From: an uncultured Mycoplasmatota bacterium
Lineage (GTDB): Bacteria; Bacillota_I; Bacilli_A; RF39; UBA660
DNA length: 64,000 bases
Assembly: GCA_949287595.1 (NCBI GenBank)
Contig: CASEGV010000001.1
Coordinates: forward strand, 129,982-193,981
Reading direction: 5' to 3'
Part shown: one piece after another, positions 26,616 to 32,072 of the stretch
Layout: each line of letters opens with the position of its first letter
How positions within the stretch are numbered: the first letter of the stretch is position 1
The notes under the pieces: generated by a model
Told to the model about the DNA's origin: nothing
Databases searched by the model: none
The model's input: only the letters and a program-made list of their open reading frames with translations
Position numbers and translations under genes: made by a program

Positions 26616-26984
26616 TCAACATTTTCTTAAGTTAATTAATAATGAACTATTTTTCTCATCTATATAGACTTTATCCACTTCTTTTCCATCAAAAATTTTA
26701 TCATAAATTTTAAATACTCTAGAAATATTATTAATAGCAGCCCTCAATACTAATGTACTATTAAACACCTCTGTATATACCCTAAACGAGTGTCTAACTT
26801 CATCAAAAACTTTTTCATTAATAAATATATTTATAGAATTTTCTCCAACTTGTAAAACTATTATAAAAATTTCCCAATCAGTATTATTAAACTCACTAGT
26901 CACATTACTATTATTTCCATACATTAATAATAAAAAATCTTCAACTGGGGTTTCTTGATTAATATCTGTTAATTCTCTAAGCAT
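26616..26984 (-). CDS. Hypothetical protein, tandem paralogue A (MLREL family)
   Basis: Starts MLRELTDI and ends ..IDEKNSSLLINLRKC. Similar ends and length to 26992..27372. Confidence 0.55.
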   Translation of the reverse strand: MLRELTDINQETPVEDFLLLMYGNNSNVTSEFNNTDWEIFIIVLQVGENSINIFINEKVFDEVRHSFRVYTEVFNSTLVLRAAINNISRVFKIYDKIFDGKEVDKVYIDEKNSSLLINLRKC

Positions 26985-26991
26985 ATTTTTA

Positions 26992-27372
26992 TTATTTTAG
27001 AATTATTAATATTGACTCATCTTTAATATCTATATCTATCTTCTGTATATCTCTTTCATAAAATATTTGATCAATTACTTTAACAGTATTAGATATTGGC
27101 CCAAGACATAACGATACTAGTAGACTATTAGGATCATCTTTACTAATCTTAAAATCTAGTTTATATGGATTTAATAAAACAATATCACTATTATAATAAA
27201 CCTTTACTTTATTATCGTCTACTTGAAATAAAGTAATACAATCTTTCAAATTTAATTTCTCTAATTCAAGTTTAGAAAAATCATTAACACCATATTCTAC
27301 ATTACTCGAAGAAAAAGTATTTATATAGTACCCAACTTTAACAAATTCGATTTTATTTAATTCTCTTAACAT
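26992..27372 (-). CDS. Hypothetical protein, tandem paralogue B (MLREL family)
   Basis: Starts MLRELNKI and ends ..IDIKDESILIILK. It is the first gene of the leftward block. Confidence 0.55.
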   Translation of the reverse strand: MLRELNKIEFVKVGYYINTFSSSNVEYGVNDFSKLELEKLNLKDCITLFQVDDNKVKVYYNSDIVLLNPYKLDFKISKDDPNSLLVSLCLGPISNTVKVIDQIFYERDIQKIDIDIKDESILIILK

Positions 27373-27389
27373 AAATTTCTTAATATTAT

Positions 27390-27410
27390 CATTTATAAGG
27401 ATTATAAACT
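27390..27410 (-). promoter_or_regulatory. Promoter-like motif (class 1: AATCCTTATAAATG), leftward
   Basis: The minus strand reads TTTATAATCCTTATAAATG, 17 nt before ATG 27372. It is inverted relative to the plus-strand copy at 27421-27444. Confidence 0.4.
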
Positions 27411-27420
27411 ATATAATTTA

Positions 27421-27444
27421 AATCCTTAAAATCCTTATAAATGG
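27421..27444 (+). promoter_or_regulatory. Promoter-like motif (class 1), rightward
   Basis: AATCCTTAAAATCCTTATAAATGG. The same motif recurs upstream of at least seven minus-strand genes. Confidence 0.4.
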
Positions 27445-27449
27445 ACATA

Positions 27450-27533
27450 GTTAAAGGCAATTAGTAAAACTGTCGTCTAAAGCATTATTAAATTATGATT
27501 AGCACTGTTTGTGAAAATGGTGCTAATTTTTTT
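27450..27533 (+). ncRNA. Candidate small RNA 1 (hairpin U1 plus T7 tract)
   Basis: Follows the promoter-like motif. Hairpin TTAGCAC (27499-27505) / GTGCTAA (27520-27526) with loop TGTTTGTGAAAATG, then TTTTTTT (27527-27533). No ORF. Confidence 0.3.
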
Positions 27534-27535
27534 CT

Positions 27536-27569
27536 TTCCTTTTATAAAACACTGAAACTCCTATATATG
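27536..27569 (+). promoter_or_regulatory. Promoter-like motif (class 2: TTCCTT-N20-TATATATG)
   Basis: TTCCTT 27536-27541, exactly 20 nt, then TATATATG 27562-27569. The same architecture occurs at 27712-27745 and 28524-28558. Confidence 0.4.
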
Positions 27570-27574
27570 TGAAA

Positions 27575-27711
27575 ATAAAAACAAAAAGAGGTACTTGTGA
27601 AAGTACTATGGGTTTTATCTTTCGTATTATCAGTATCTTTTGTGAAAACCGTACTGATAGTTTGATTTATTATTTTTAATTGTTAATCCCGCAGCGGCGG
27701 GATTTTTTTTC
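27575..27711 (+). ncRNA. Candidate small RNA 2 (hairpins U2, U3 plus intrinsic terminator)
   Basis: U2 GTACTT-GTGA-AAGTAC (27591-27606). U3 TATCAGTA (27628-27635) / TACTGATA (27652-27659) with loop TCTTTTGTGAAAACCG. Ends at the GC-rich terminator. No ORF. Confidence 0.3.
27685..27711 (+). terminator. Rho-independent terminator
   Basis: AATCCCGC-AGCG-GCGGGATT followed by T8. It is the most GC-rich stem in this region. Confidence 0.75.
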
Positions 27712-27745
27712 TTCCTTCTACTATCAACTAAAAGCCTTATATATG
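27712..27745 (+). promoter_or_regulatory. Promoter-like motif (class 2), abutting the start codon of 27747..28028
   Basis: TTCCTT 27712-27717, 20 nt, TATATATG 27738-27745, ATG at 27747. This implies a near-leaderless mRNA if it is a promoter. Confidence 0.35.
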
Positions 27746-27746
27746 T

Positions 27747-28028
27747 ATGGAAAGATATTTATTAAATGCATTTTCATTGCAGATGATAAACTTTCCAGCG
27801 GTAGTGAACTTTGAAGAAATAGATTCTCTACAGGATGGTTTGACCTCAGCTATTGGACATGCTGATACTGCTGCAATTCTGGGAGTACCAATGAACCGAA
27901 TTAACGTTAAGTTATCTAAAGGTGATATTGCGTACGTAGCTCAGTTGCAGGGAGGCAGATTACCAGAAGGGTCTACAAAACTTCCGGATGGATTTAGCTT
28001 CAAGTTCATTAAGGTTACCGTTGGATAA
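27747..28028 (+). CDS. acrIII-1: DUF1874 / AcrIII-1-like viral ring nuclease (candidate anti-type III CRISPR)
   Basis: YLLNAFSLQM, SAIGHADTA, KGDIAYVAQLQGGRLPEG resemble my recollection of SIRV1 gp29/STIV B116 (..LANAFSINML.., ..SIGH.., ..LYVVQ..RLEEG). About 93 aa as in that family. Visibly GC-richer than the flanks. Confidence 0.65.
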   Translation: MERYLLNAFSLQMINFPAVVNFEEIDSLQDGLTSAIGHADTAAILGVPMNRINVKLSKGDIAYVAQLQGGRLPEGSTKLPDGFSFKFIKVTVG

Positions 28029-28196
28029 TCTGAGTGAAATGCATCATTGGTTGCTGAACCAATTTAGACAAATCAGATAGAGTATAATAGTAGAAAAGGC
28101 TCAATAAATACGGACACTACTAGTATTTTAATAAAATTAATTAATATAATAAAATTTTTAAACTTTTAAAGAATACAATAACTTTAATTTAAATAT

Positions 28197-28523: not shown

Positions 28524-28558
28524 TTCCTTTTAAACTTGAATGAAACCCCTATAAAGTG
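28524..28558 (+). promoter_or_regulatory. Promoter-like motif (class 2 variant)
   Basis: TTCCTT 28524-28529, 20 nt, TATAAAGTG 28550-28558. Confidence 0.35.
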
Positions 28559-28586
28559 TTATAAGAAATTATTCTATTAAAATTGA

Positions 28587-28618
28587 TTCTCTCCCTCCCC
28601 TTCAAAGGAGGGAGAGAA
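28587..28618 (+). other. GC-rich 12-bp hairpin in a 350-nt non-coding gap
   Basis: TTCTCTCCCTCC-CCTTCAAA-GGAGGGAGAGAA. A T-rich tract (CTTTTTCTCTTTTTTG) begins about 20 nt later. Confidence 0.5.
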
Positions 28619-28804
28619 GGGAAATCTATCTTATCACTTTTTCTCTTTTTTGAAACTATATAATGAATACTACCAAAAATATCCATATAAAAGTGATAAA
28701 ATGCGTATATATTCCCCTATTATTCTTACAATTGAGTTAAAGGGAAACTCCTTTGACTTCATAAAAATAGGACAATTTAATGAATTCTATAATAAATATA
28801 AGTT

Positions 28805-30970
28805 ATGATAAATAAATTAAAACCATGGATTGTACCAGGAGGAATTAGATTTTTAAGTGATTGGAAAGACTTCTTTTTCTATAAATTACCTCCTAAATGT
28901 ATAATAAACAAACAAATACCTGGATGCGGATTTACAGAAAGAGTAATTAATGGGATAGAGAATACGATCCTTTGTAGTCCTCGTATAGTTCTTCTTGAAA
29001 GTAAGTATAGTAAGCATGATAGAGATGTTTACTTAGTTAAGAATGAGCTACAGGATAATGATCCAGATATCGATAAAGATATTAGTAAAGATGATTCATC
29101 TTATTTAAATTCAAAAAAATCATCTTCTAATATGTTCGAGGAGAAATTAAAAGATTGTATTGATCCTAATCAAAGAAAAAGAGATATATATAATCGATTA
29201 ATGAGAGAAATTAAAGATTATATTAATACTAGAGACTTCTATGGTAAACCTTATAAAATCTTAGTAACATACGATTCTTATAGGATAGTACAAGATATTT
29301 TAATAGCATTAGGAAAATTTGATACTTTCTATACAATAGTAGATGAGTTTCAAAGTATCCTACATGATTCTAGATTTAAAAGTAATACTGAGAATGAATT
29401 CTTGGGTTATTTAAAAAAATCTCATTCAGCTATATTTGTTTCTGCCACTCCAATGGTAGATAAGTATTTAAATATGTTAGATGAATTTGATGGTCTTCCA
29501 TATATTGAATTCGATTGGTTAACTGAAGATCCTACTAGAGTTATAAAACCTTCTCTTAAGGTGAGAACTATGAAATCAGTAGGTACTAAGGCAGTTGAGA
29601 TTATACAATCTTATCTTAATGGAAATTTCGAGAGAGCTACTAGAATTATTAATGGTTTTCCAATAGAGATAGAATCTAGAGAGGCAGTCTTATTTATGAA
29701 TTCTGTTAACCATATTATTAGTATCATCAAGAAGTGTAATCTAAGTCCTGATCAAGTATTAATATTATGTGCTAAGACAGAAGATAATAAGAAAAAGATA
29801 AGGAAGAAACTAGGGAAATCATTTGAGATTGGACATGTTCCTAATGTAGATAAAGGAGAGATTTTTCCGATGTTTACCTTCTGTACTTCAACGGTTTATC
29901 TAGGAGCAGATTTTGATAGTTATTGTGCTAGAACTTTTATATTTAGTGATGCTAATCTTGATACACTAGCAGTAGATATAAGTGATGACCTTCCACAGAT
30001 TTTAGGACGACAAAGGAAGTCTGAAAATCCTTGGAAAAATAGTGCTGAGTTCTATTATAGAGTGACTGCAGATTATAAGAAGATGTCACAAGAGGAATTT
30101 ATGAGAGAGATAGAGAGAAAAGTAGATGTAACTAATAGTTTACTTAGGACTTATGATAATGCTCTTGATAAAGATAAATTAGCTGTAGCATCTACTTACA
30201 AAGATGTAGCTGAACTTAAGCATTATAAGGATAATTATATTTCTGTAAATACTCATGGTGGTACTGGATTATTTCCAATATTTAATAATTTAGTTAAAAT
30301 AAATGATCTTAGAGTATTTGAGATTCAACAGTATGATTATGCAGATCGTTTTACAGTATTTAGTACTATAAATGAGAGATTAGATATAGGATATTCAGTA
30401 AATCAAGAAGTTGAGGCATTTTTCTATAAATATGATCAATTAGGAACATTTAAAGAAAAACTAAGACTTCTCTGTGAATATGATATGTCAGATGAAGCAA
30501 GAAGTATTGCTTTAGAACAGATTGGAGAACATGATAATATTAGATCTTACTACTTAACTCTAAAACCAGAAAGACTTAGGGCATTAAATTATAATAGAAC
30601 TTATATTGAAAGAGAATTAGGAATAGTAGTATTTAGTAAAGAACTACTGGTTAGAACTATATTTCAAAATTTTAAGGTAGGAGATAGAGTTAGTACTGCA
30701 AATGCGAAGATTAAGTTAGGACAATTATATAATTCTATAAATTATAAAGCAACTCCGAAGGCTACTGATCTTAATGAATATTTTGATACTAAGGAAACAA
30801 AATTAACGGAGACATTAAGTGATGGAACTAAAAGAGTTGTGAAAGCAATGAATATTGTTTCTATAAAATCAGAATATCAATTCTTTTATAATAATCTACT
30901 AGTAGCAAATAATTATGTAGAACAAGAAAATAAACTTAAAGATCAAAATAACAATGATATATTTAATTGA
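28805..30970 (+). CDS. SF2 (DExH/Q-type) helicase-like protein with a C-terminal module shared with the next ORF
   Basis: Motif II IVDEFQS, motif III FVSATP, motif VI-like QILGRQRK. P-loop-position sequence IPGCGFTE is atypical. Confidence 0.55.
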   Translation: MINKLKPWIVPGGIRFLSDWKDFFFYKLPPKCIINKQIPGCGFTERVINGIENTILCSPRIVLLESKYSKHDRDVYLVKNELQDNDPDIDKDISKDDSSYLNSKKSSSNMFEEKLKDCIDPNQRKRDIYNRLMREIKDYINTRDFYGKPYKILVTYDSYRIVQDILIALGKFDTFYTIVDEFQSILHDSRFKSNTENEFLGYLKKSHSAIFVSATPMVDKYLNMLDEFDGLPYIEFDWLTEDPTRVIKPSLKVRTMKSVGTKAVEIIQSYLNGNFERATRIINGFPIEIESREAVLFMNSVNHIISIIKKCNLSPDQVLILCAKTEDNKKKIRKKLGKSFEIGHVPNVDKGEIFPMFTFCTSTVYLGADFDSYCARTFIFSDANLDTLAVDISDDLPQILGRQRKSENPWKNSAEFYYRVTADYKKMSQEEFMREIERKVDVTNSLLRTYDNALDKDKLAVASTYKDVAELKHYKDNYISVNTHGGTGLFPIFNNLVKINDLRVFEIQQYDYADRFTVFSTINERLDIGYSVNQEVEAFFYKYDQLGTFKEKLRLLCEYDMSDEARSIALEQIGEHDNIRSYYLTLKPERLRALNYNRTYIERELGIVVFSKELLVRTIFQNFKVGDRVSTANAKIKLGQLYNSINYKATPKATDLNEYFDTKETKLTETLSDGTKRVVKAMNIVSIKSEYQFFYNNLLVANNYVEQENKLKDQNNNDIFN
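30461..30934 (+). repeat. Duplicated C-terminal module, copy 1 (partner 31599..32060)
   Basis: LRLLCEYDMSDEARSIALEQIGEHDNIRSYYLTLKPERLRAL..LYNSINYKATPKATDL..NNLLVANNYVEQENK against the copy in 30954..32072. A 27-nt identical stretch AATAATTATGTAGAACAAGAAAATAAA closes both. Confidence 0.8.
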
Positions 30971-32072
30971 ATCAAGTGGTTATAACAGAGTAGGAGATAC
31001 TATCTCTTATTTTCAATTATTAAAAATAGGATATACTGAAGATTTTAAAAAAGATAAGAGATATATTTCCTATAAACTTCATAATCCTACTTGTAAGGTA
31101 TTATATGAAGTACTAGGAGGTACTGAAGATCATGAAAAAAGAATACAGTATAAATTTAAAGATCTATTATATCCTGATTATGGAAGAGAATGGTTTTATT
31201 ATTCTGAAGAGATAATAGATTTCTTTGAAGATATTCAGAATAATGGATTAGATATTGTATTAAATCTTCCTAAAGGAGCTTCTAGTAATACTGTTTATAC
31301 AACCTATAGAAATAAAGTAAAAGATATATTATACAGTATTTATGGATTTTATAGAGAAGAAAATAATATATCTCCTAAAGAATCATTAGAAGATACTATG
31401 AAAGATTACTATAATAGATTAATAGTAGATTTAGGAGATAAGATTACTGTAGAATCTGAAGTATTAGAGTATATAAGAAAAGATTTTGGAGATATATTAG
31501 TAAATAAGTATATAGAAAATAATAAATTATTTCAATCTTCTCAAGAGATATCTAAATTTATGGAAGAGTTTTCCAAATTAGATACACCTAATGATAGATT
31601 AAGATTCTTTTGTAATTATGAATTATCTGATACAGAAAGAAACATAATTCTTAATCAATTAGGAGAATATGATAATATTAGATCTTACTATACTACATTA
31701 TCTCCCGAAAGATTAAGAGCATTAGGACATAACAGTACTAAAATTCGTAGAGAATTAGGAATAGTAGCATTTAGTAAGGAATTGCTTACTATGACTATAT
31801 TCAAAAACTTTAAGATAGGTACTAGAATTCCAAATACTAAGATTAAAAATACTCTTACTAATCTTTATAATTCTATTAATTATAAAGCAACACCAAAAGC
31901 AACAGACCTAGGAGAATACTTTGAAATTAAGAAATTAAAAGTTACATTACCAGATAAGACAAGAGTAAATGGAATTGAATTAGTAGGAGTTAAGCCAGAA
32001 TATCAAGGAACTTATAATAATCTACTAGTAGTGAATAATTATGTAGAACAAGAAAATAAAGAAGAGGATTAA
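30954..32072 (+). CDS. T5orf172 (GIY-YIG-like) domain protein with duplicated C-terminal module
   Basis: N-terminal MIYLIESSG..LLKIGYTED..KR..YK..(H)EKRIQYKF..YGREWFY fits the T5orf172 pattern. The C-terminal ~155 aa are roughly 60% identical to the helicase C-terminus. Confidence 0.6.
   Translation: MIYLIESSGYNRVGDTISYFQLLKIGYTEDFKKDKRYISYKLHNPTCKVLYEVLGGTEDHEKRIQYKFKDLLYPDYGREWFYYSEEIIDFFEDIQNNGLDIVLNLPKGASSNTVYTTYRNKVKDILYSIYGFYREENNISPKESLEDTMKDYYNRLIVDLGDKITVESEVLEYIRKDFGDILVNKYIENNKLFQSSQEISKFMEEFSKLDTPNDRLRFFCNYELSDTERNIILNQLGEYDNIRSYYTTLSPERLRALGHNSTKIRRELGIVAFSKELLTMTIFKNFKIGTRIPNTKIKNTLTNLYNSINYKATPKATDLGEYFEIKKLKVTLPDKTRVNGIELVGVKPEYQGTYNNLLVVNNYVEQENKEED
31599..32060 (+). repeat. 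Duplicated C-terminal module, copy 2
   Basis: See 30461..30934. Confidence 0.8.

What the first reader, a model, noticed from the sequence alone, without database searches (positions are those of the whole stretch)
27450..27711. ORF-less hairpin array with conserved TTGTGAAA loops just upstream of the Acr-like gene
Three stem-loops lie between a promoter-like motif (27421-27444) and a strong terminator (27685-27711). Their stems differ, but each displays the same sequence in or across the loop:
- U1: TTAGCAC[TGTTTGTGAAAATG]GTGCTAA followed by T7
- U2: GTACTT[GTGA]AAGTAC
- U3: TATCAGTA[TCTTTTGTGAAAACCG]TACTGATA

A fourth TGTGAAAA lies at 27568-27575, directly after a second promoter-like motif. 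Conservation of the loop with divergent stems suggests a protein- or RNA-recognition element presented on RNA, not a simple terminator.

Given the location beside an anti-CRISPR-like gene, possibilities include RNA decoys (for example CRISPR-repeat mimics), regulatory sRNAs, or attenuators controlling Acr dosage. I cannot tell these apart from sequence alone.
Basis: seen in the sequence. Interest (0 to 1): 0.75.

Follow-up and report, generated by a model that had tools for sequence, protein, structure and literature searches.

The report
Two tandem phage small-RNA genes
The gene-free stretch beside the anti-CRISPR gene of this giant phage holds two related small non-coding RNA genes whose hairpins share a GUGA-capped tip; the same tip caps hairpins in other, probably Bacteroidota-infecting, phages, so it is a real RNA element of unknown function with no required link to the anti-CRISPR gene.

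Summary
Three of the four TTGTGAAA copies in 64 kb lie within 139 nt, each at a hairpin tip. The tip is a GUGA (GNRA) tetraloop closed by U-A pairs.

The region is two tandem transcription units, not one array. Each starts at a phage promoter (CCTTATAWATG, 8 intergenic copies in the window) and has no conserved ORF.
- Unit 1 (~27444-27535) has a short 5' hairpin, and U1 is its terminator.
- Unit 2 (~27570-27712) has U2, U3 and a GC-rich terminator.

A covariance model built from unit 2 finds unit 1, so the two are paralogs.

In 19 related contigs unit 1 is always present. U2 and U3 are nearly invariant while the linkers diverge. Unit 2 and the AcrIII-1 gene occur in all four combinations, and further unit-2 copies sit beside unrelated genes. 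This argues against an Acr attenuator.

A scan of 185,579 genomes for the U1/U3 core found no CRISPR-like array, though that test is weak.

The same tip on covarying ~14-bp stems occurs in Bacteroides phage DAC16 and in other uncultured phages. There it lies at gene ends or 0-9 nt before tRNA genes.

Best reading: a new sRNA family carrying a lineage-wide RNA-end or processing hairpin. Its trans function is unknown.

The parts
27390..27407 (-). Leftward promoter of the same class (CTTATAAATG on the - strand), 18 nt upstream of the 126-aa gene. It forms an inverted duplicate with P1.
   Evidence: (inverted repeat I1, 18 nt, 94% complementary).
27426..27443 (+). P1, the promoter of unit 1 (TTAAAATCCTTATAAATG).
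   Evidence: It belongs to a motif class with 8 intergenic, correctly oriented copies in the window. It is invariant in 19 related contigs.
27444..27535 (+). Unit 1, a predicted ~90-nt non-coding RNA.
   Evidence: It folds at -21.5 kcal/mol with z -2.7. It is present in all 19 related contigs with 9 sequence variants. Model R1 matches it at 37 bits, E 1.8e-5.
27456..27474 (+). 5' hairpin of unit 1 (GGCAATT-AGTAA-AACTGTC).
   Evidence: It is a perfect 7-bp stem GACAATT/AATTGTC in many relatives. A compensatory variant GATAATT/AATTATC occurs in L122, and relatives such as L110 show a G.U in + strand sense. It aligns to U2 in the model.
27497..27533 (+). U1, a 14-bp hairpin with a G.U + UUU/AAA + GUGA tip followed by T7. 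It is the intrinsic terminator of unit 1.
   Evidence: -14.8 kcal/mol on + versus -7.9 on -. Relatives carry compensatory changes in the 3' arm, and one carries a whole-hairpin flip.
27534..27569 (+). P2, the promoter of unit 2 (CTTTCCTTTTATAAAACACTGAAACTCCTATATATG). It is the first copy of the 45-nt T-run-plus-promoter direct repeat (27526-27570).
   Evidence: (repeat D1). It is nearly identical in the paralogous copies.
27570..27712 (+). Unit 2, a predicted non-coding RNA of ~90 nt if it ends after U3, or ~140 nt if it ends at the GC terminator.
   Evidence: It folds at -35.6 kcal/mol with z -3.6. There are 10 distinct full-length versions in relatives plus 2 paralogous loci.
27590..27607 (+). 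U2 hairpin (core GTACTTGTGAAAGTAC).
   Evidence: It is 100% identical in all 10 full-length versions, while the flanking leader and linker average 67% and 57% identity.
27628..27659 (+). U3 hairpin: a 9-bp lower stem, a variable internal loop, and a UUU(U)-GUGA-AAA(A) tip. A U-rich tract follows at 27660-27684.
   Evidence: core 97% identical. It is homologous to U1 with compensatory stem changes.
27685..27711 (+). GC-rich intrinsic terminator (AATCCCGC-AGCG-GCGGGATT + T8).
   Evidence: It is conserved in relatives, and L113 and L116 carry the exact reverse complement.
27712..27745 (+). P3, the acr gene's own promoter. It is the second copy of the 45-nt direct repeat (27702-27746), and its core ends 1 nt before the ATG.
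   Evidence: In L114 this promoter follows U1 directly.
27747..28028 (+). Neighbouring gene of the AcrIII-1 / DUF1874 (STIV_B116-like) family. It is not part of the RNA units.
   Evidence: PF08960 at 36.7 bits against a cut-off of 26. It aligns to SIRV1 gp29 (2x4i) and 6scf and keeps the IGH motif.

Best explanation
The region holds two tandem, paralogous small non-coding RNA genes of an uncultivated giant phage.

**Shown or strongly indicated:**
- Each unit starts at a phage-specific promoter (...CCTTATAWATG).
- Each has a short 5' hairpin, an unconstrained single-stranded linker, and a ~14-bp 3' hairpin whose tip is R-UUU-GUGA-AAA-U.
- In unit 1 that 3' hairpin is the terminator. In unit 2 it is followed by a U-rich tract and a second, GC-rich terminator.
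- The units are separate modules. They are gained and lost by recombination at the repeated terminator-plus-promoter cassettes, independently of the neighbouring AcrIII-1 gene.

**Inferred:**
- The GUGA-capped hairpin is not specific to this locus. It belongs to a hairpin class found in phages that are shown or inferred to infect Bacteroidota. There it sits at gene ends, at sRNA 3' ends and just upstream of tRNA genes.
- I take it to be an RNA 3'-end-forming or processing and stability element whose tip is read by a shared host factor, such as a nuclease or an RNA-binding protein.
- The ~90-140-nt RNAs would then act in trans. They may titrate or use that same factor, and the invariant U2 is a second binding site. 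This trans function is my guess and is not tested.
For: **Transcription signals.**
- The promoter motif has 8 intergenic, correctly oriented copies in the window. Five precede protein genes with 17-45-nt leaders.
- U1 and the GC hairpin pass the terminator scan, which found 3 sites against 0.6 expected.

**Non-coding.**
- The candidate ORFs change frame between variants. They are cut to MVN* in L117-L119 and are absent in L064.

**RNA on the + strand.**
- The + strand folds 2-7 kcal/mol better than the - strand for every hairpin, owing to G.U pairs and the GNRA loop.
- Compensatory changes occur in the U1 3' arm and in the unit-1 5' hairpin.
- Between U1-type and U3-type stems, 92.8% of cells are paired, against 35-51% when partners are slid, and 6 of 14 pairs change on both sides.

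**Paralogy.** The model built from unit 2 hits unit 1 over its full length at 37 bits, E 1.8e-5 in 64 kb.

**Selective constraint.** Mean pairwise identity by segment:

| Segment | Identity |
|---|---|
| U2 | 100% |
| U3 core | 97% |
| Leader | 67% |
| U2-U3 linker | 57% |
| 3' linker | 75% |
| Neighbouring 126-aa gene (DNA) | 90% |

**Modularity.**
- Of 19 contigs, 9 have unit 2 plus acr, 1 has acr only, 2 have unit 2 only, 4 have neither, and 3 are cut by a contig end.
- Paralogous copies lie elsewhere in the relative's genome.

**Wider hairpin class.**
- DAC16 has 4 intergenic copies on the coding strand in 50 kb. TTTGTGAAAA occurs 6 times there against 0.6 expected.
- L008, L099 and L034 have hairpins with this tip or the U2-type tip ending 0-9 nt before tRNA genes.
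- L008 also has a unit built as promoter, hairpin, AU linker and GC terminator, the same plan as unit 2.
- No Rfam family matches.
Against: - There are no expression data. Promoters, ends and RNA sizes are all predictions.
- U2 and U3 show no covariation within the lineage because their stems never vary. For those two, structure rests on thermodynamics, strand asymmetry and homology to U1.
- One natural variant (L115) carries U1 flipped so the loop reads UCAC. The loop sequence is therefore dispensable for whatever U1 does there.
- Part of the cross-phage set (L099b, L100, L102, L104, L109) was found with a pattern that already imposed the tip and five stem pairs. My rough estimate is that some such terminators would turn up by chance.
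- The first 50 kb of Prevotella phage Lak-B1 has none, so the tip is not universal in Bacteroidota phages.
- No binding factor is known. The Bacteroidota host assignment is inferred from the lack of Shine-Dalgarno sequences, the GroEL best hits and the hairpin sharing.
Confidence: 0.6

Rival explanations
1. Empty or decayed cassettes. The units would be promoter-terminator shells left after gene loss in a recombination-prone accessory region. The hairpins would be ordinary terminators of a locally common type. Their identity between copies would reflect recent duplication and gene conversion rather than function.
For: - The region is a hotspot of gain and loss bounded by repeated T-run-plus-promoter cassettes.
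- acr deletion scars are visible (ATGGAAAGATA|AAC in L123).
- Leaders and linkers are mosaics exchanged between paralogous copies.
- U1 is a terminator, and its loop can flip.
- Similar hairpins end ordinary genes in DAC16, L102 and Chryseobacterium.
Against: - U2 is not followed by a U-run, yet it is 100% identical in 10 versions and 2 distant paralogous loci, while the sequence 1 nt away diverges to 57-67%.
- The two-hairpin plan is kept in both unit 1 and unit 2, and unit 1 is in 19 of 19 contigs.
- A shell with no function should decay or be deleted.
Confidence: 0.18
2. RNA anti-defence decoy. The hairpins would mimic a host CRISPR repeat (as Racr / solitary repeat units do) or another RNA substrate of a defence nuclease, and soak up Cas6, effector or nuclease proteins.
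For: - The units are promoter-driven, ORF-less and next to a validated type of anti-CRISPR gene. Racr candidates are enriched within 1 kb of acr genes (PMC10651486).
- U1 and U3 are 32 nt, a repeat-like size.
- Several copies of one tip on one RNA suit a sponge.
Against: - A scan of 185,579 species genomes for the U1/U3 core found one hit, an ordinary gene terminator in Chryseobacterium, and no array.
- U1, U2 and U3 differ in stem sequence and length, unlike copies of one repeat.
- Unit 2 and acr assort independently.
- The same tip caps gene-end and pre-tRNA hairpins in other phages, which points to a general RNA role.
- The host is unknown, so its repeats could not be compared directly.
Confidence: 0.07
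3. Cis-acting leader. Unit 2 would be an attenuator or a nut/put-like antitermination RNA that sets read-through of the GC terminator into acrIII-1.
For: - The order is promoter, two hairpins, strong terminator, then a gene on the same strand.
- GNRA-type hairpin loops are what lambda N-type antiterminators bind (from my own knowledge of boxB).
Against: - acr has its own promoter, ending 1 nt before its ATG.
- L114 has acr without unit 2, and L121 and L123 have unit 2 without acr.
- Paralogous units precede unrelated genes that also have their own promoters.
- In unit 1 the corresponding hairpin is itself the terminator.
Confidence: 0.05
4. DNA-level element. It could be a replication origin (an R-loop or hairpin priming site at the strand-switch point), or a recognition site for a nuclease or recombinase that moves cassettes.
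For: - The locus lies at the GC-skew minimum and the divergent-transcription point.
- The hairpins are near-palindromes that undergo exact flips.
- A T5orf172-domain and helicase-like gene pair, present as several paralogs, lies nearby and also next to the L064 copy.
Against: - G.U pairs make the structures markedly better on the + strand only.
- The elements are framed by promoters and terminators.
- The multiple dispersed copies, and the copies before tRNA genes inside one transcript in L008, fit RNA better.
- GC skew here simply follows gene orientation.
Confidence: 0.07
5. Small hydrophobic peptide gene in unit 2, either MKVLWVLSFVLSVSFVKTVLIV from GTG 27597 or MGFIFRIISIFCENRTDSLIYYF from ATG 27608.
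For: - An AAGAGG lies 5 nt before the GTG.
- The ATG frame stays open in two linker types, because a +2 and a +1 indel compensate each other.
Against: - The frame between the two indels differs completely.
- The ORF is MVN* in L117-L119, L121 and L125, and there is no start codon in L064.
- The conserved parts are the hairpins, not a reading frame.
Confidence: 0.02

Closest known systems
Phage-encoded small non-coding RNA genes with their own promoter and intrinsic terminator (for example the stable small RNAs of the T4 tRNA region, or prophage sRNAs). This comparison rests on my own knowledge.
   Same: They are short, ORF-less, promoter-to-terminator units in an accessory region. They are structured and present in more than one copy.
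   Different: There is no sequence or structure match to any of 4227 Rfam families. Conservation lies in the two hairpins rather than in a single-stranded seed. The target and any partner protein are unknown.
Racr / solitary repeat units, the RNA anti-CRISPRs (PMC10651486).
   Same: They are promoter-driven non-coding units in a phage, here adjacent to an acr gene, with a hairpin of repeat-like size.
   Different: No matching CRISPR repeat was found. The three hairpins are not copies of one repeat. The units assort independently of acr. The same tip occurs in pre-tRNA and gene-end hairpins of other phages.
Ordinary Rho-independent terminators.
   Same: U1 and the GC hairpin meet the definition. 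Hairpins of the same type end ordinary genes in DAC16, L102 and Chryseobacterium.
   Different: The 12-nt tip (R-UUU-GUGA-AAA-U) is conserved across unrelated phages while the stems covary. U2 has no U-run. In L008, L099 and L034 the hairpins lie 0-9 nt upstream of tRNA genes with no room for a new promoter, so they cannot be efficient terminators there.
PeSL-type mobile regulatory cassettes of T4-type phages: an early promoter plus a stem-loop that mediates modular shuffling. Recalled from Arbiol et al. 2010, which I did not read here.
   Same: Repeated stem-loop, T-run and promoter cassettes (27526-27570 and 27702-27746, 73% identical) flank small modules. Relatives differ by exactly such modules.
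   Different: The promoter class and the phage group are different. That concept explains the gain and loss of units, but not the conserved U2 and U3 inside a unit.
Tetraloop-specified dsRNA processing sites, such as yeast Rnt1p with AGNN loops, or lambda boxB with a GNRA-like loop bound by N. From my own knowledge.
   Same: A sequence-conserved tetraloop tip sits on a stem of fairly constant length (~13-16 bp). It is placed where RNA ends are made.
   Different: No enzyme or binding protein is known for this tip. No cleavage data exist. This is purely an analogy.

Membership tests
Racr / solitary repeat unit (RNA anti-CRISPR) | Sequence similarity to the CRISPR repeat of a host system. | tested here: inconclusive
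   The core pattern AGYAYNKTTTGTGAAAAYNGTRCT gave 1 hit in 185,579 genomes, a gene terminator and not an array. The test needs near-identity, and the host is unknown. No repeat database was available.
Racr / solitary repeat unit (RNA anti-CRISPR) | A solitary unit directly downstream of a promoter, with no cas genes nearby. | tested here: met
   Promoters P1 and P2 lie upstream. No cas-like genes appeared among the neighbours scanned.
Racr / solitary repeat unit (RNA anti-CRISPR) | Consistent association with acr genes. This is an enrichment, not a strict rule. | tested here: not met
   All four combinations of unit 2 and acr occur. Paralogs lie beside unrelated genes. Model R1 gives only weak hits in 28 other AcrIII-1 loci, the best being L008 at E 0.023. 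That hit is a unit 2 kb downstream of the L008 acr.
Intrinsic (Rho-independent) terminator | A stable stem-loop immediately followed by a U-run. | tested here: met
   U1 (14 pairs + T7) and the GC hairpin (8 pairs + T8) pass the scan. U3 has only an interrupted U-rich tract. U2 has none.
Cis-regulatory leader / attenuator / antiterminator of acrIII-1 | The element and the regulated gene are always co-transcribed and co-inherited, and the gene lacks its own promoter. | tested here: not met
   acr has its own promoter at 27736-27745. L114 has acr without unit 2. L121 and L123 have unit 2 without acr.
Small protein gene | A reading frame conserved among relatives. | tested here: not met
   The frame shifts between linker types. 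There is a stop after 3 codons in L117-L119, and no start codon in L064.
Any described RNA family (Rfam 15) | A covariance-model match at or near the gathering score. | tested here: not met
   The best hit is rseX at 27.9 bits against a gathering score of 50, E 0.39, and it is driven by the terminator. Nothing matched the equivalent hairpins in L008, L099, L100, L102 or L104.
Structured RNA (general) | Base pairs kept through compensatory changes, with strand-specific G.U pairs. | tested here: met
   This holds for the U1/U3-type hairpin and for the unit-1 5' hairpin. For U2 and U3 within the lineage the stems never vary, so those pairs give no evidence either way.
AcrIII-1 / DUF1874 ring nuclease (the neighbouring gene only) | A Pfam PF08960 match above threshold and a conserved GH motif. 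| tested here: met
   36.7 bits against a cut-off of 26. It aligns to SIRV1 gp29 (2x4i) and 6scf and retains IGH. Activity was not tested.

The most novel reading that the evidence does not exclude
The tip R-UUU-GUGA-AAA-U on a ~14-bp stem could be the recognition signal of a dedicated, still unidentified RNA-processing or RNA-binding factor of Bacteroidota. Bacteroidota lack Hfq and ProQ (my own knowledge).

The factor might be a nuclease that measures from the tetraloop to release tRNAs and define sRNA ends. Phages of several unrelated lineages would have adopted the signal. The giant phage's multi-copy two-hairpin sRNAs would then exploit or titrate that factor during infection.
Probability: 0.2. 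Interest if true: 0.7.

Novelty: new member of a known kind. Interest (0 to 1): 0.42.

Why it matters
If the units are expressed, this is an undescribed small-RNA family in a giant phage lineage that many metagenomes carry: 23 homologous clusters of the neighbouring protein were found, several of them seen on multiple contigs.

The hairpin tip it carries may also be of wider interest. It is sequence-conserved across unrelated phages, on stems that covary. It sits where RNA ends are made, including 0-9 nt before tRNA genes.

Post-transcriptional control in Bacteroidota is poorly understood. A portable hairpin signal would be a handle for finding the factor that reads it. The cultured pair Bacteroides phage DAC16 and B. 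thetaiotaomicron makes this directly testable.

For anti-CRISPR work the result is mostly negative. The RNA units are neighbours of acrIII-1, not partners of it.

Tried and rejected
- **Rfam.** I scanned the region and five other loci and found no family.
- **tRNA.** The window has none.
- **BLAST against 50,697 phage records.** There was no relative of the locus, and only noise for unit 2.
- **Small-ORF reading.** Rejected on frame non-conservation.
- **A 25-aa ORF through U1 (MISTVCENGAN...).** Rejected, because it runs through the terminator and the next promoter. Its likeness to a CxxC-coding stretch in L107 is a chance pattern hit.
- **DNA-binding half-sites.** Rex (TTGTGAA-N4-TTCACAA), CRP and parS were considered and rejected, because no inverted partner lies at the right spacing (sequence; Rex lead).
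- **Anticodon-loop mimic of tRNA-His (UUGUGAA).** Rejected. The pairing register gives a tetraloop, not a 7-nt loop, and the match is weak statistically.
- **Bacteroidota promoter inside the hairpin (TTTG ... TAnnTTTG).** Rejected, because the spacing is inconsistent at 12, 16, 22 and 29 nt.
- **Antisense pairing of the unit-2 linker with the acr start.** The match is 8 nt (TATCTTTC/GAAAGATA). It is not kept in other linker types and is of chance size.
- **Variable linkers as guide or spacer cassettes.** Rejected. The linker types are related by ordinary substitutions and indels and by exchange between paralogs.
- **Literature search for the motif strings.** Nothing relevant.
- **Collection scans.** Scans for U1, U2, U3 and the unit-2 promoter found only the one related IMG/VR contig and its ENA twin.
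Full report
**1. What is there**

The window is AT-rich (about 27% GC) phage DNA. It carries GroEL/GroES, tail-fibre genes and a 2708-aa ORF. It comes from a 371-kb ENA contig, ERZ16268073 scaffold_4.

Positions 27373-27746 are the 374-nt gap between a leftward gene block and a rightward one. The gene to the right (27747-28028, 93 aa) belongs to the AcrIII-1 / DUF1874 family. It matches PF08960 at 36.7 bits against a cut-off of 26. It also aligns to SIRV1 gp29 and to 6scf, and keeps the IGH motif.

**2. Checking the observation**

- TTGTGAAA occurs four times in the window, as chance predicts (4.04 expected). Three copies lie at 27509, 27595 and 27640 on one strand.
- Folding puts each at the tip of a hairpin. 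The 8-mer is two U-A pairs around a GUGA tetraloop.
- Hairpins capped with GTGA are otherwise rare in the window.
- The fourth TGTGAAAA, at 27568, is the end of a promoter running into the leader. Relatives with other leaders lack it.

**3. The region is two units, not one array**

The motif ...CCTTATAWATG occurs eight times in the window. Every copy is intergenic and correctly oriented.
- Five copies lie 17-45 nt upstream of protein genes.
- One ends 1 nt before the acr ATG.
- Two have no ORF downstream, at 27433-27443 and 27560-27569.

U1 is followed by T7 and scores as a terminator, as does the GC hairpin at 27685-27704. This gives two units:
- Unit 1 runs from P1 to U1 (about 27444-27535).
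- Unit 2 runs from P2 through U2 and U3 to the GC terminator (about 27570-27712).

A 45-nt T-run-plus-promoter direct repeat flanks unit 2.

**4. Relatives**

Pattern scans first found two further unit-2 copies in a related 254-kb IMG/VR contig. They lie at other genomic positions, next to unrelated genes. One of these copies also recurs on an ENA contig (L072).

Homologues of the adjacent 126-aa protein then gave 17 further related contigs. With the window and the IMG/VR contig this makes 19. Their intergenic regions are printed.

| Feature | Result in 19 contigs |
|---|---|
| Unit 1 | present in all 19 |
| Unit 2 | present in 14 |
| Unit 2 and acr both present | 9 |
| acr only | 1 (L114) |
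| Unit 2 only | 2 (L121, L123, the latter with an acr deletion scar) |
| Neither | 4 |
| Cut by a contig end | 3 |

Unit 2 is therefore neither a leader of acr nor obligatorily linked to it.

**5. Coding or not**

- The GTG and ATG ORFs in unit 2 change frame between linker types.
- They are cut to MVN* in L117-L119.
- They have no start codon in L064.

What is conserved is the hairpins. Mean pairwise identity by segment:

| Segment | Identity |
|---|---|
| U2 | 100% |
| U3 core | 97% |
| Leader | 67% |
| U2-U3 linker | 57% |
| 3' linker | 75% |
| Neighbouring 126-aa gene (DNA) | 90% |

**6. RNA or DNA**

- Every hairpin folds better on the + strand (U1: -14.8 against -7.9 kcal/mol). The cause is G.U pairs and the GNRA loop.
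- The U1 3' arm varies with compensation (UGG, CGG, CAG).
- The 5' hairpin of unit 1 shows GACAATT/AATTGTC against GATAATT/AATTATC.
- U1-type and U3-type stems differ by compensatory changes.

A covariance model built from U2, the linker and U3 finds unit 1 over its whole length, at 37 bits and E 1.8e-5 in 64 kb, and finds nothing else in the window. Units 1 and 2 are tandem paralogs with one plan: a short 5' hairpin, a linker, and a ~14-bp 3' hairpin with the GUGA tip.

**7. The tip is not private to this phage**

- L008 was fetched only because it encodes an AcrIII-1 homologue, and it has Bacteroidota-type promoters. It carries three hairpins with the same tip. Two end 8-9 nt before tRNA genes inside one transcript. 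One lies in a unit built as promoter, hairpin, AU linker and GC terminator, like unit 2.
- L099 has four such hairpins in a tRNA array, three of them 0-7 nt before tRNA genes. Only one of the four was selected by my search pattern.
- L034 has a hairpin with the U2-type tip about 6 nt before a tRNA gene.
- Cultured Bacteroides phage DAC16 has four in its first 50 kb. All are intergenic and on the coding strand, and this is the most frequent tip among 96 long hairpins there. TTTGTGAAAA occurs 6 times against 0.6 expected.
- The first 50 kb of Prevotella phage Lak-B1 has none. A Staphylococcus control has the 10-mer twice, but not in hairpins.
- The single bacterial hit of the core pattern is a gene terminator in Chryseobacterium.

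Where such a hairpin lies a few nucleotides before a tRNA gene, with no room for a promoter, it cannot be an efficient terminator. That points to a processing, stability or recognition role for the tip.

I treat this as inference, for two reasons. Some of the set was pattern-selected. And one relative (L115) carries U1 exactly flipped, with the loop reading UCAC.

**8. Interpretation**

Shown:
- two promoter-to-terminator, ORF-less, paralogous units;
- strong constraint on U2 and U3;
- independence from acr;
- multiple copies per genome;
- no Rfam family.

Inferred:
- they are expressed sRNAs;
- the 3' hairpin belongs to a wider end-forming or processing hairpin class, read by a host factor;
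- the sRNAs act in trans.

The Racr idea is not excluded, but nothing supports it beyond adjacency. The attenuator and peptide ideas are largely refuted. An 'empty cassette' reading remains the main rival. The invariance of U2, which has no terminator features, speaks against it.

**9. Verdict**

This is a real, non-random feature. It is a new small-RNA family of a known general kind. It carries a hairpin tip that may be of wider interest in Bacteroidota phage RNA biology. The proposed connection to anti-CRISPR function is not supported.

Noticed in passing
L115 (U1) and L113 / L116 (GC terminator), against window 27497-27528 and 27685-27704: Whole-hairpin flips occur. In L115, U1 reads ...CTGTTTTCACAAACAG..., the exact reverse complement of the L113 form. 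In L113 and L116 the terminator TCCCGCAGCGGCGGGA reads TCCCGCCGCTGCGGGA. Near-perfect palindromes in this lineage therefore invert in place.
   Followed up: partly
L008 3405-3660: A GC-rich, apparently structured ~250-nt stretch lies between a Bacteroidota-type promoter (just downstream of an AcrIII-1 homologue) and two tRNA genes that are each preceded by a hairpin. It has no Rfam match at E <= 0.01 and no obvious ORF.
   Followed up: partly
L008 3707-3868, L099 8395-10533, L034 10700-10737: Hairpins with the tip (Y/R)UUGUGAAA(R/U) end 0-9 nt upstream of tRNA genes in three unrelated phage contigs. This may be a pre-tRNA processing or insulating element.
   Followed up: partly
window 28549-28700 (hairpin 28587-28618): A conserved non-coding element lies upstream of the 721-aa gene. 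It has a 14-bp G/C-rich hairpin (TTCTCTCCCTCC...GGAGGGAGAGAA) and a promoter-like CCCTATAAAGTG. It is also kept in L029 and in L031, where the upstream genes differ.
   Followed up: partly
window 28805-32072; L064 338-3450: A gene pair recurs as paralogs elsewhere in the relative's genome. One member is a 721-aa protein with a weak DEAD-helicase match. The other is a 372-aa protein with a T5orf172 domain. They share a ~170-aa C-terminal domain. This may be a mobile or selfish module.
   Followed up: partly
window 27736-27749: The acrIII-1 promoter core ends 1 nt before the ATG. The mRNA would be leaderless or nearly so. Genes in the window generally lack Shine-Dalgarno sequences, which suggests a Bacteroidota-like host.
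   Followed up: no
L029 2780-2800, L123, L121 (window equivalent 27747-28170): acrIII-1 has been lost by deletion in several relatives. The deletion leaves its first codons fused to the 5' UTR of the next gene (ATGGAAAGATA|AACTTTTAAAG).
   Followed up: yes
L100 3972-4018 (- strand): A sub-threshold type III hammerhead match (28.9 bits, E 0.031; CUGAUGAG...CGAAAC) lies about 60 nt upstream of a GUGA-tip hairpin in an unrelated 97-kb phage contig.
   Followed up: no
L099 6209-6284: The 26-tRNA array includes a tRNA with a CUA anticodon (an amber suppressor, called 'Pyl' by ARAGORN). This hints at stop-codon recoding in that phage.
   Followed up: no
window 26616-27372: Two adjacent paralogous genes of unknown function (126 aa and 122 aa, both starting MLRELxxI) lie left of the locus. 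They have no Pfam or PHROG match but are conserved in all relatives.
   Followed up: partly
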